A stretch of 64,000 nt of DNA, taken from positions 38,192,001-38,256,000 of the forward strand of contig OZ024746.1 in assembly GCA_964016885.1 (NCBI GenBank), read 5' to 3'. Both the position numbers and the translations under genes were made by a program. Positions 37,077 to 52,022 of the stretch are shown here, piece by piece. Below the pieces are notes generated by a model that saw nothing but the letters and a program-made list of their open reading frames with translations, was not told the origin of the DNA and searched no databases. Source of the DNA: Eledone cirrhosa. Lineage: Eukaryota. The stretch's first letter is position 1. Each line of letters begins with the position of its first letter.

Positions 37077-37422
37077 AATAAAGTTAAATAAAAGTCAAAT
37101 GATTAAAATTTAGCTTCGTTTATTACTGCTATATATATTTCAGTGACAGCCATCTTTGGCTGTGACCTCTTCAGGCAGTTTGAATTAGTATGGTATAGAC
37201 AAGTACCATACTAATTCAAACTGCCTGAAGAGGTCACAGCCAAAGATGGCTGTCACTGAAATATATATAGCAGTAATAAACGAAGCTAAATTTTAATCAT
37301 TTGACTTTTATTTAACTTTATTTTACACTACTCCGGAGTAACCAAACCAACCTGCGCACTTCGTCGAGTGCTCCAGCCTGCATACTGAGGTGTTGGTATA
37401 CAACCAACATAAACTCAAAATC
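37077..37422. mobile_element. Non-coding fold-back mini-element: 119-bp inverted repeat (37077-37195 / 37204-37322) + ~100-nt tail, in (TA)n
   Basis: Arms read as exact reverse complements around the 8-nt loop TAGACAAG; each arm carries a hammerhead. Confidence 0.85.
37220..37274 (+). ncRNA. Canonical-core minimal type I hammerhead ribozyme (mirror copy 37125-37179, minus)
   Basis: ACTGC-CTGAAGA-GGTCACAGCCA/aaga/TGGCTGTCACT-GAAA-TATATA-TA-GCAGT. Stem I is ACTGC/GCAGT, stem III is palindromic, and cleavage is predicted after A37269. Confidence 0.85.
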
Positions 37423-40400
37423 TATATATATATATATGTATATATATATGTGTGTGTGTGTGTACATATATATATATATATATATATATATATATATATA
37501 TATATATATATATATATATATATATATATGTGTGTGTGTGTGTGTGTATATATATATAAAAGAAATGTGCCTTTTAAATGAAATGGGGTTTGCGGAAAAA
37601 CGGAATTAAGCGAGATAAAGTAATTAATTGAAGAGAAGCGTGTGCTTGTAATATTATAGATTAGCAGGACTTACGTGTAGGTGAGGTTGTGATTAAGCAA
37701 GTGTACGTGCGTATGTGCAAGCATGGGGAATTAAGTGAGCTACACTGCTATGTAAATGTGTGTATATGTTTGTATAGGAGTTTAAATAGTGATGGCTATT
37801 GTCGTTAATGACTCAATAACCTCATTTCGTGTATTGTATTGACCTACAAATAGTGTCGTATTGACAAACAACGCTTAATGCCATAGTTGTATGTCGGAGC
37901 GGAGATAATGGTGTAATGGGTTGGAAAAAAGGGGGCAAATGAGTGTGCATGTTTGGAAAGCTGTGAAGTGCAGTTTTAGACATTTTATCATTATTTATGG
38001 AGGAATGGGTGTTTTAGAAGGAACATTAATTATTAATCGACATCATAGGCATCGGCTGTATCTAAGCGAAAGATTAGCTGCTGTTCGTGACCATACTGAA
38101 GTAGTAGTGTGTCATAGTATTGTAATGTATAGAAAAGTGGATTGGTGAAGTGAAGTGAAGAGACGATGACACGTTTGAGATATGTGCTTCTATCTCGTTG
38201 TAGACCTAACACGTTATGTTTAATATGATATACGTTTCATTTATTTCTCATATATATAAGACGCAGTAAATTTGCATTTGATGCCGTTGAAGACAGTTTG
38301 GTACTGTGAATTAATAGGTCAGTTATATAAAAACTGGATATGCGATTGTATGGCGTGATCATATGATGGACAAGGAGACAGCTGGTATAATGTCTAAAGA
38401 AAGCGAATGAAGACAAAATTGATAGGTTGGATGGAGGAGAATTGAAAAGAGTAAATGATATGTGAATGAAAAAGAACCTCAAGATGTTTTCGCATGTGAA
38501 GGATAGGAGAGGGTGTTTAGAAAGGAAGTGAGTGGTACCAGAGTCAGATTACATTAAACGAAAGCAATGTAGTCTGGTGCACTAGAAAGATTACTTAGTG
38601 GGCTTGAAGACTAAGTGAAAGAATACAATAAAGGTGGTGTCACAAAGGTGTTATACAGTGATGCTGTGTTCGTACTGAAGCTCAGTAGGGGCCAAGCACT
38701 CTAACGTGGAGTGATATGGATCATCAATACAAACAGAATTGTTAGAAAAGTTACGTGTGGATTCTAAATATAGAGTACATGTAGTTAAAATAAATAAATG
38801 CAGTGAGCTTTGCTGGGTTATGAAATATAATGCCATTGCAGTCGTTCGTCGATGTAAATCGTTTAAGCTGTAGTGTGTGTCTGGTATAATCATTGGCGTT
38901 ATTGGCTTGAGTGCAAACAATAAATAGGTTGGCATATTTAGGAAACTATCATACTCCCATAACCACTCCGTTAAACTGGAGCTGGTGAAACTCCCCGGAA
39001 AAGAGGAAGCAGTTGACAGTGAATGCATTTTGTGAGAGGTGGTAGCAATTAGTATTACTGGACATGAGGGTAGAACAAAAGTGCTAAATGAATATAAAAA
39101 AATAGAAATCGTTTTGTGTGGAGGATAACAAAACACGGGCAGTTCAGACTCAAGGACTTACGCATTTCCATACAAATTCGTTCCCATACATAATTCTTTC
39201 AACGTACCTCGACATTAGCCAATCAACCATGTTGGCCATTTTGCAAGGAGCCAGTAACTTTCTCAAGTCATTCTTGCTACTATCACAATTTGCTAAGAAT
39301 GCCAGCACAATTTGAAATGTCATCCTATTGCCTCATAAGCAAATGATCGTTCTAGATTAAGTATCTATGAATGACTTACGCCCCAAGTGGATAGGTATGT
39401 AAAGAGTTAATATCTTATAGAAAAGTATCCAATATTATGTATACTATCTTTAGGAAATAGTGTGTTGTCCGTTGATTACTTAAATACTGTAACAATATCC
39501 ATAATTCAGTATTAAGCATTAAAAAACGACATTCTCCTTTCTGTTATCATACATTATCGATTAATTTGGGTTCAATTGATTTCTCTTCTCATTGTGTATA
39601 AATTACTTACATAGTGCCTGGTTTGGTCATTAATCAGTATTTAACGACTACTGACGATTGCTCCTTAATCAACGATTATCGATTTATTTCGAAAATATTA
39701 CGATTATTCAACACGTATTGATCCGTTTGAAGCCTACCCATAACAATTAGCTGTATGATTATACAGTATCATTTATTCATAAGATTTATCGTTTTTTCGT
39801 CTTTGTCCGTTTTTGTTCTTCTTTATGGAAAATAACAGATGGCAAATTGATATTATACATAGAGCAAAATGAGATGCCGACAGTTCATTTCTGGTTGTAA
39901 GTATAGTGATGTATGTAGCTTAAGGAATTTAGCTCCTACGGTTATTTCTACATCAGAATCTGTAAGTGCTACATGAAGGTACCTCCTGAATTTTAAACAA
40001 CATCAATCTCGAACATTCATGTGCAACGCAAAATTCGAATTATTCTTTAAAATTAGAATGTAATAAACCTTCGTTATTTTTTATGATGGGTATTCCACTA
40101 GTTTGAACAGAATAACCTGCATGAGCAATTAACCGGCAAGTTGGTAAGTATTCCACAGACAGGTGAAACTCTAATCTAATTCTCAAAGATATGCAGTGTG
40201 TCAAAAAGTGTCCTTTGTATTCCAGGGAAACTGTATCTGACGGGCTTTCAAGAGTATCCACACACAACTCAAAGGTATTCCACACACAACTCATGGGTTG
40301 AATTGAGGGAATCACACATATCCAAGATACAATGAAGGGGGCTCAAATTGGAAACCTAATAATTATGTACAGAATGTCTTCGCCTCTTTGTAATTAGACT

Positions 40401-41371
40401 ATAACTAAAAAGCTAACAATGCGGCTTTAATTTCAATTCCATATTCATTCCCAACATAACCATTTTAGAATAATGGATTGTTTCTTACAACTCAAATAAT
40501 TCAATACTTTCTGAAGAACCAAACTCCATTCTTTTGTTTATCATACAGTAATTTGACCATAATTGCTTTTTACTAACTGTAAAGTTACAATTTGTGGGGA
40601 AAGTGCTTAGATGTTTAAATTCATACCCCATGAAAATGCATTGCTTTAAAAGCGTAATGGGTATGGTAATGTACAAACAGCCGTAAAACCTAGGGTGCGT
40701 GCGTTGTAATCATCACGGTATACTTGTATAACTAAGACACTTAATTTCAATAACATGGTTCACTTAACTACATATGTATGGCCGGCAGTATTCAATGGCA
40801 GTACTGTAAAATTAATTTTTAGCATTGGCAAAAGGTCATGATGTTTGGTGAGGCGTATAGTCGATTAAATCCTTCGCAGTAAATAGATTCTGTAACGAAA
40901 ATGTCAAACGGTTTTTAAATAGACCTGGAGTGTATTTCTCTCTTTAATCACAATATTGATTCCTCATTATCTTACAAATTCATCAGCCTGCCTGATAATT
41001 AATCACGATTTTAATAATTTCGCTTGGCTAATGATTTTTCTTTAACTTTTGTTGGGGAGAGGAGGTTTCGAAAATGCTAAACCTGTAAATATATATGTGT
41101 TTAGTAAATACATTGACTGCATAATTGCAGAGCGTTTAGAAGTATTTATGATTTGGCAAATATTTATCAGGACTGTTTATTTCTTGGCATCTTCACCGGG
41201 GGCTGTTGCAAGCATTCTGACCTGATCTCTGGTTTGAGGAAACGTGCTCATTCCTACACCTTTAACTCTGGTCTTGTGATGTTTTAATCCCTTTCCACAC
41301 CAGTTTATGCATCCTTGCAAGAGAGTTCACTGATAACTGCTACTTTTCCTTTTTTTGCCTGAACAATAATA

Positions 41372-41593
41372 ATAGTTTCTGATTTAGGCACAAGGCCAAC
41401 AATTTTGAGCGGGGTGAAACTCGTTTAAATTGACCACAGTGCGTTAATGGTACTTTATGTTATAAATCCTTTAGGGATCAAATGTAAGACTAACCTTGGT
41501 AGGATTTGAATTCAGAATATAAAGGCCTGTACTTTTCTATGCCGTAAAGCATGTTATCGGACGCTCCACCTATATTGCCAATCCATCACCCTT
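41372..41593 (-). mobile_element. tRNA-derived SINE, diverged
   Basis: Reverse complement of the SINE consensus (TTAGGCACAAGGCC..GGTACTTTAT..GGATTTGAATTCAGA..TGCCAATCCA). Confidence 0.75.
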
Positions 41594-51597: not shown

Positions 51598-51775
51598 TGG
51601 CAGTAGCGGTAGAGGGTTGGATGTTATGCTTTTCAGCAACGAGTTACGGCTCTCTATCGTCTGAGTTTAAATCCCGCCGACGTTAACTTTGACTATTATC
51701 CTTACGGGGTCGATGAAATAAAGTACTAGTAATGCACTGGGATAATTGCTGGCATTGTGCCAAATGTAGAAATAA
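51598..51775 (+). mobile_element. tRNA-derived SINE
   Basis: Matches the SINE consensus. Confidence 0.8.
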
Positions 51776-51787
51776 TTATATATATAT

Positions 51788-52022
51788 ATATTTATTAAAA
51801 TAACAGATTAAAGTTTAAGCAAAGAATCGGTGCTTTCGCCCTTAACGGGATCTTCTGAAACTCAGTTTCAGAAGATCCCGTTAAGGGTGAAAGCAGCGAT
51901 TCTTTGCTTAAACTTTAATCTGTTATTTTAATAAATATTTGCTCTACGGTTCTTATATATTTGATATATATTTATCCTTATCGAGCCCTCTTTGGATTTA
52001 GTCTTCAAATTTATTGTTATTA
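51788..52022. mobile_element. PLE family 2 non-coding fold-back mini-element: 75-bp inverted repeat (51788-51862 / 51864-51938) + ~84-nt tail
   Basis: Arms differ at ~2 positions with a 1-nt centre; the sequence matches the pLTR at 28295-28457; (TA)n on both sides. Confidence 0.85.
51864..51914 (+). ncRNA. Family 2 type I hammerhead variant (CAGAAGA core); mirror copy 51812-51862, minus
   Basis: AGTTT-CAGAAGA-TCCC/gttaa/GGGT-GAAA-GCA/gcgattctt/TGC-TT-AAACT. Confidence 0.65.

What the first reader, a model, noticed from the sequence alone, without database searches (positions are those of the whole stretch)
37077..52022. Family-spanning set of tiny (TA)n-embedded fold-back elements carrying hammerhead ribozymes
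Seen: three non-coding units of unrelated sequence (37077-37422, 49987-50180, 51788-52022; about 190-350 bp) sit between (TA)n runs. All share one layout: inverted arm, direct arm, then an unpaired 78-100 nt tail. Two carry complete hammerhead motifs in both arms and one carries a partial motif. The 51.8-kb unit matches the pLTR of coding PLE family 2. Known: PLE pLTRs carry minimal hammerheads and often occur inverted. Inference: these are either extreme truncation products or a class of non-autonomous, MITE-mimicking ribozyme retroelements mobilised by PLE RT/GIY-YIG.
Basis: partly seen in the sequence, partly recalled or inferred. Interest (0 to 1): 0.75.

Follow-up and report, generated by a model that had tools for sequence, protein, structure and literature searches.

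The report
Shortest Penelope insertions record capped start
These three small mirror-image repeats are leftover ends of three protein-coding Penelope-type jumping genes, not a separate kind of element; in two of the families thousands of copies stop at one point with an extra G, which likely records the cap of the gene's RNA being copied twice and the two copies joined head to head.

Summary
The three fold-backs are real. Each is the terminal repeat plus tail of a coding Hydra-clade Penelope-like element (PLE); coding parents were found for all three.

They are not amplified mini-elements. In an unbiased U2 sample, 31 of 32 junctions differ, and junction type does not track lineage.

U2 and U3 copies pile up at one point, +1, about 200-230 nt before the parent's start codon (U2: 36 of 70 tail-bearing arms within 10 nt, 1 of 70 in the next 90 nt). 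Arms ending there often carry a G absent from the parent (U3: 59 of 80 junction rows; U2: 88 G to 12 A), a known footprint of a copied mRNA cap.

Either arm can be the longer, and both can end in that G/C around a 1-nt centre. This favours two cDNAs primed from both target strands over snap-back.

Hammerheads: U1 canonical, U3 with a U4A core change, U2 the 3' half only.

Earlier scan notes reached twin priming and a capped start on other DNA of this genome; I tested it on these families. No RNA data were available.

The parts
37077..37195 (-). U1 inverted arm, tail-less; ends at the family's body end (site 1)
   Evidence: 98% to parent L247
37204..37322 (+). U1 direct arm; starts about 100 nt downstream of the family's putative +1, so an ordinary 5' truncation
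37220..37274 (+). U1 minimal type I hammerhead (CUGAAGA core, palindromic stem III, predicted cut after 37269); mirror copy at 37125-37179 on the minus strand
37323..37422 (+). U1 100-nt tail, ending at site 2
49987..50064 (-). U2 78-nt tail; in the parent it runs on into the 5' UTR and ORF
   Evidence: L243
50065..50125 (-). U2 direct arm, +1 to +61; starts exactly at +1 (50125), without an extra G in this copy
50126..50181 (+). U2 inverted arm, +6 to +61; 3' half of a hammerhead (GAAA 50139-50142, GUC 50159-50161)
51788..51862 (-). U3 inverted arm, +1 to +75, tail-less
51863..51863 (+). single C at the fold-back centre, absent from the parent; inferred complement of the cap G on the inverted arm
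51864..51938 (+). U3 direct arm, +1 to +75; hammerhead topology at 51864-51914 with a U4A core change
51939..52022 (+). U3 84-nt tail; in the parent it runs on to the start codon
   Evidence: L244
25729..28458 (.). longer, decayed head-to-head insertion of the U3 family: inverted part 25729-27767, direct part 27794-28458 with tail
36339..36964 (.). U3-family insertion with a long inverted arm (terminal repeat plus GIY-YIG-coding part) and almost only the tail on the direct side

Best explanation
The three units are short head-to-head insertions of three coding Hydra-clade Penelope-like elements in TA repeats, and in the U2 and U3 families they likely form when the element's enzyme primes copying from both cut target strands and both copies run off the capped start of the RNA and are then joined. 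Steps: (1) Transcription likely starts at an initiator-like YAGTY in the terminal repeat (inferred from the breakpoint wall and the extra G; no RNA data). (2) The RT would start at two internal sites, the body end and the tail end, 60-160 nt from the RNA's 5' end (the two fixed ends are shown here; internal initiation was shown in vitro for another PLE, PMC11167929). (3) Each cDNA stops independently, often at the cap, which is copied as C (inferred). (4) The two 3' ends are joined through 0-4 nt of microhomology or filler (junctions shown; the repair route is inferred). U1 is the same kind of insertion, but both arms stopped about 90-100 nt short of the putative start. The units are end products, not templates.
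For: Parents: L243 and L244 read +1, terminal repeat, tail, 5' UTR, ORF, 3' UTR, tail-less terminal repeat; L247 holds the U1 ORF and tail-less 3' end. Wall: U2 tail-bearing arms end within -10..+10 in 36 of 70 loci against 1 of 70 in -100..-11; adjacent inverted arms 38 of 49 against 0; U3 12 of 70 against 4 of 70, inverted 11 of 27 against 1. Extra G: U3 rows with a non-T base at -1 number 3,108 of 23,230; in the first 100 (hand count) the 80 junction rows show 59 G, 12 A, 9 C, whereas the 20 rows with intact parent sequence show 1 G, 4 A, 15 C. U2: 6,051 of 25,322 rows have a purine at -1, 88 G to 12 A in the first 100. At other U3 breakpoints about 8 of 64 have a G before them (hand count). 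G also follows (TA)n or other flank directly, where no arm can supply it. Two cDNAs: the inverted arm reaches at least 10 nt further 5' than the direct arm in 11 of 70 U2 and 15 of 70 U3 loci; 10 of 30 U3 top hits carry the cap base on both arms around one A. Same source for both arms: the subfamily triplet agrees in 30 of 34 loci, shuffle mean 7.4, maximum 17.
Against: No transcript 5' end was observed. About 10 of the 59 U3 G rows (the CTTCTGAG junction) could take their G from the inverted arm by microhomology. T at -1 cannot be told from the parent, so cap-less run-offs are uncounted. The window's U2 copy has no G. U1 gives only 2 of 20 loci with +1 and G. In U3 most arms pass +1 (20 of 70 extend beyond -100), which needs tandem read-through RNA or a template jump that I did not test. 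Arm concordance fits snap-back or later gene conversion equally well. The samples come from the start of contig C1 only, and exact patterns favour young copies.
Confidence: 0.7

Rival explanations
1. Snap-back: one cDNA runs to the capped start, folds on itself and copies itself back to site 1.
For: Many junctions show 1-4 nt of microhomology with a 3-6 nt loop, and both arms share subfamily variants in 30 of 34 loci.
Against: It cannot give an inverted arm longer than the direct arm (11 of 70 and 15 of 70 loci) or two complete arms around a 1-nt centre (window U3) without later deletion. It may still account for part of the copies.
Confidence: 0.14
2. The units are non-autonomous MITE-like ribozyme retroelements amplified as fold-back units from master copies.
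For: 40 of 40 scored hits are near full length for both U2 and U3; 15 of 30 U2 top hits share the window's junction; about 90% of U2 copies are minis.
Against: 31 of 32 junctions are distinct in the unbiased sample; no link between junction and lineage (p 0.14, 0.53); both outer ends coincide with those of long coding copies; U1 junctions differ from locus to locus; U2 lacks half of its ribozyme.
Confidence: 0.06
3. Long inverted insertions later collapsed by deletion of the palindrome centre.
For: Palindromes are unstable (own knowledge); some copies carry internal deletions.
Against: It does not explain a wall at the same functional position with a non-parental G in two families.
Confidence: 0.05
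4. Self-priming on an antisense RNA template, as proposed for rotifer PLEs (PMC3846280, passages read).
For: Published explanation of head-to-head palindromes.
Against: The wall and extra G lie at the 5' side of the sense strand, at a YAGTY motif before the ORF.
Confidence: 0.04
5. Assembly artefact.
For: Palindromes beside microsatellites are prone to artefacts.
Against: Arms of U2 and U3 differ by 5 and 2 substitutions; junctions vary across many loci; contigs of run X1 show opposite-strand joints and the same two end sites for the U3 family.
Confidence: 0.01

Closest known systems
Hydra clade of C-terminal EN+ Penelope-like elements (Craig et al. 2021, PMC8557442; section 11 and passages read)
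   Same: DKT, CxCx5C linker, CxxC and CxH motifs, (TA)n targets, hammerheads, inverted 5'-truncated copy and one-sided tail.
   Different: Tails are 78-100 nt, not 30-40; units are about 3.1-3.3 kb; RWR instead of RWK. The sections read mention no cap-limited minimal copies.
Poseidon_Ac in vitro system (Frangieh et al. 2024, PMC11167929; parts 1-2 of 4 read)
   Same: Both target strands are cut and extended; two internal RT starts bracket the tail; ribozyme cleavage is not needed.
   Different: Different clade; no mechanism given for inverted copies and no cap footprint in the parts read.
L1 twin priming and 5' untemplated G (G: PMC9341517, passages read; twin priming recalled)
   Same: Two primers from two target strands; extra G from the copied cap.
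   Different: L1 twin priming copies non-overlapping RNA segments; here both arms copy the same segment, and priming is near the 5' end of the RNA.
Metazoan non-LTR retrozymes (bioRxiv 10.64898/2026.07.22.740005, parts 1-2 of 5 read)
   Same: Small, non-coding, hammerhead-related, PLE-derived.
   Different: Retrozymes are head-to-tail arrays with a complete hammerhead per unit; these are head-to-head ends of coding elements.
MITEs (recalled)
   Same: Short, non-coding, inverted repeats, TA targets, high copy number.
   Different: Asymmetric ends, variable centre, coding RT parents rather than a transposase.

Membership tests
Hydra-clade PLE (parents) | single ORF, RT with C-terminal GIY-YIG-type endonuclease | tested here: met
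   L243 786-aa and L247 814-aa open frames with YRDD and a C-terminal YIG motif; L244 stops before the EN core, which is seen in L249 and the window. Pfam gave no hit for 4 of 4 proteins, so the assignment rests on motifs.
Hydra-clade PLE (parents) | DKG changed to DKT | tested here: met
   3 of 3 parents
Hydra-clade PLE (parents) | N-terminal RWK motif | tested here: inconclusive
   RWR in the U2 and U3 parents; not in the U1 frame, which lacks the N-terminus
Hydra-clade PLE (parents) | CxCx5C linker, CxxC and CxH in the endonuclease | tested here: met
   linker in 3 of 3; CxxC and CxH in U1 and U2 and in the U3 frame of L249
Hydra-clade PLE (parents) | insertion into (TA)n | tested here: met
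Hydra-clade PLE (parents) | placement in an RT tree with reference PLEs | not tested
   no reference proteins fetched
Minimal type I hammerhead | CUGANGA...GAAA...UH core with stems I-III, U1 | tested here: met
Minimal type I hammerhead | same core, U3 | tested here: not met
   topology present but U4A; not the MFE fold
Minimal type I hammerhead | same core, U2 unit | tested here: not met
   5' half absent; the parent has a complete U3-A8 variant (known, PMC4209133 part 1) with +1 inside the stem II region
Minimal type I hammerhead | self-cleavage | not testable with these tools
   indirect hint for the U2 parent only
MITE or amplified non-autonomous element | uniform internal structure inherited from master copies | tested here: not met
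Non-LTR retrozyme | head-to-tail tandem units, each with a complete hammerhead | tested here: not met
Non-LTR retrozyme | circular RNA | not testable with these tools
   no RNA holder listed

The most novel reading that the evidence does not exclude
Penelope-like elements prime near the 5' end of their capped RNA and make a retrovirus-like strong-stop cDNA that normally jumps to the 3' terminal repeat; these tens of thousands of mini fold-backs are pairs of strong-stop cDNAs that failed to jump. That would explain the pseudo-LTR, the tail and the inverted copy by one mechanism. A C-ended inverted arm joined to AGT can also rebuild a TCAGT initiator, as in window U3.
Probability: 0.25. Interest if true: 0.8.

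Novelty: new variant of a known kind. Interest (0 to 1): 0.52.

Why it matters
How Penelope-like elements, the closest mobile relatives of telomerase, make their inverted copies and tails is still open. One published proposal needs an antisense template. Here thousands of genomic junctions map the likely RNA start to the nucleotide, point to a capped sense template, and favour priming from both target strands. That gives exact predictions for the existing in vitro assay. Practically, such minis would be misannotated as MITEs or miRNA hairpins.

Tried and rejected
- Rfam scan: only miRNA-like matches and other weak ones below the gathering scores; no hammerhead.
- Pfam: 0 families for 4 of 4 proteins.
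- RNA evidence: no RNA holder listed. The six runs are contigs of unknown kind and cannot show starts. No listed contig piece bridged the window's own U3 junction by 31 nt on both sides, which proves nothing.
- First idea that the fold-back sits at the ribozyme cut: rejected for the main class; +1 lies 41-46 nt upstream of the predicted cuts in U2 and U3. No wall at the U3 cut (+47) in 70 loci.
- Splice acceptor as the wall: rejected, the bases before +1 are TT or TC, not AG.
- A subfamily with G at -1: rejected, 1 of 20 intact-parent rows.
- Top-hit sets rejected as a junction sample because they are selected for the query's junction.
- Search for the U2 tail's continuation by pattern gave mostly (TA)n; it was found through a tandem locus instead.
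- I saw no clear downstream promoter element at +28 to +32 (by eye; consensus recalled).
- breakpoints come from local alignment to single real copies and are blurred by a few nt; 21 U2 and 43 U3 loci without an adjacent scored inverted arm are outside the inverted-arm counts.
- Literature searches listed no paper on cap-derived G or twin priming in PLEs. The library lacks most subscription papers, and I read no supplements; Craig 2021 files S1/S2 and Frangieh Fig. S2 may bear on these families.
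Full report
Observation. The three units exist at the stated coordinates between (TA)n runs. U1 has 119-bp perfect arms and a 100-nt tail, U2 56-bp arms with 5 mismatches and a 78-nt tail (element on the minus strand), U3 75-bp arms with 2 mismatches, a 1-nt centre and an 84-nt tail. Only U1 carries a canonical CUGANGA hammerhead, once per arm. U3 can be drawn as a type I hammerhead that begins at its first nucleotide, but its core reads CAGAAGA and the fold is not the MFE. 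U2 holds only the 3' half. Rfam lists no hammerhead.

Copy numbers. Exact tail patterns occur 33,498 (U2) and 15,042 (U3) times in this 3.0-Gb genome, reversed controls 0. U1 is small, with 23 candidates.

Parents. Two real loci, L243 (U2) and L244 (U3), read terminal repeat, tail, short 5' UTR, ORF, 3' UTR and a tail-less terminal repeat; L247 holds the U1 ORF and its tail-less 3' end. The tail is therefore the start of the element's 5' region. The proteins carry DKT, YRDD and CxCx5C and are 44-54% identical over the main blocks. These are the Hydra-clade features listed by Craig et al. (PMC8557442, section 11 read). I built no tree. The layout of inverted copy plus one-sided tail is described there as typical of PLEs (passages).

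Are the minis amplified as units? Top hits suggested so (40 of 40 near full length), but they are selected. I sampled the first 70 tail-anchored loci of each large family on contig C1. Of the 70 U2 loci, 32 had both arms past +12, and 31 of those 32 junction strings differ. Among top hits, copies that share a junction are no closer in sequence than others (p 0.14 and 0.53). U1 junctions differ from locus to locus. The fold-back is formed anew at each insertion.

A wall at one position. U2 tail-bearing arms end within -10..+10 of a position I call +1 in 36 of 70 loci, in the next 90 nt upstream in 1, beyond -100 in 6, and downstream of +10 in 27. Adjacent inverted arms end in that window in 38 of 49. 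For U3 the figures are 12, 4, 20 and 34 of 70, and 11 of 27. In both families +1 is the A of YAGTY, which resembles an initiator (consensus recalled), and lies about 200-230 nt before the start codon. Penelope's promoter is internal, with Inr and DPE annotated (PMC2377424, passages).

The extra G. The parents have T, or C in some variants, at -1. For U3, 3,108 of 23,230 matches have another base. Among the first 100 listed, counted by hand, the 80 junction rows show 59 G, 12 A and 9 C, and the 20 rows with intact upstream parent show 1 G, 4 A and 15 C. For U2, 6,051 of 25,322 have a purine, 88 G to 12 A in the first 100. At other U3 breakpoints about 8 of 64 are preceded by G (by hand). About 10 of the U3 G rows could take the G from the inverted arm, but G also follows plain flank. 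[quoted passage not shown] Window U3 carries the complementary C at 51863. Window U2 starts at +1 without a G. U1 folds about 100 nt downstream of its putative +1, where 2 of 20 loci end with a G; that is weak.

One cDNA or two. Snap-back cannot make the tail-less arm longer than the tail-bearing arm, yet this holds in 11 of 70 U2 and 15 of 70 U3 loci, some with the terminal C (L170, L207, L226). Ten of 30 U3 top hits have the cap base on both arms around a single A, too tight for a hairpin. Both arms share a subfamily signature in 30 of 34 loci against 7.4 expected, so they come from one RNA or one source locus. This fits the in vitro behaviour of Poseidon_Ac, which extends both target strands from two internal starts that bracket the tail, is predicted to dimerise and does not need ribozyme cleavage (PMC11167929, parts 1-2 read). 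It argues against self-priming on an antisense template (PMC3846280, passages). Snap-back may still explain some junctions with short loops.

Ribozyme. In the U2 parent the hammerhead is complete, with the known U3-A8 core (PMC4209133, part 1 read), and +1 falls inside its stem II region. RNA starting at +1 could not cleave in cis. A minor class may start at the cut: among direct arms with A before +42, 11 of the first 100 of 229 rows have both arms ending exactly at the predicted cut around one A, against 0 of 87 rows at a control position, +38 (by hand). A stable C4/G4 remnant is an alternative, so this is only a hint of cleavage in vivo.

Artefact check. Contigs of run X1 show the same two end sites and opposite-strand joints at varied places for the U3 family. 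That run may come from the assembled sample, and the window's own junction was not bridged. No RNA run was listed.

Prior work. Six literature searches listed nothing on a cap footprint or twin priming in PLEs; supplements were not read. Passages of an octopus repeat annotation (PMC13282606) say nothing on such minis. Earlier notes of this scan on other DNA of the same genome proposed twin priming and joining at a capped start. My reading was on record before those look-ups, and the counts above are my own. One note led me to the U3-A8 hammerhead of the U2 parent, which I then checked.

Verdict. The feature is real and belongs to a known class. The value lies in the junctions, which likely map the capped RNA start and favour two-strand priming, a testable answer to an open question about PLE insertion. 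New variant of a known kind, interest 0.52.

Noticed in passing
window 8386-11718: A second PLE family (C-terminal GIY-YIG, no blastp hit to the three Hydra parents) with 1,560-bp arms that are 100% complementary: very young or homogenised. An end of the same family starts right after U3's TA run at about 52120.
   Followed up: partly
window 36339-36860: The inverted arm joins the terminal repeat at about +1 directly to the end of the ORF, skipping about 930 nt of 3' UTR; possibly a cDNA that reached the RNA start and jumped template. One case only.
   Followed up: no
rows C1:5040296, 23675515, 25463534: Three U3 junctions read G-GTTAG, a possible minor capped start at -3.
   Followed up: no
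window 53757-53819: Another short perfect hairpin of unknown family next to a microsatellite.
   Followed up: no
window 56047-56201: Older imperfect inverted repeat (72%), possibly a true MITE.
   Followed up: no
window 17970-18236, 24016-24248, 34753-34916, 51598-51801, 59488-59684, 61491-61732: Abundant family of about 200 nt with tRNA-like A/B-box appearance (recalled), probably a SINE; one copy directly precedes U3.
   Followed up: no
L037, L058, L103, L079: Minis of different families stack in the same TA tract, each insertion leaving new target.
   Followed up: partly
L108, L168 and rows: Some U2 junctions hold long T runs in front of +1, probably slippage on the T-rich sequence just upstream.
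   Followed up: no
L105, L106: Insertion with a tail on both arms, an exception to the one-tail rule.
   Followed up: no
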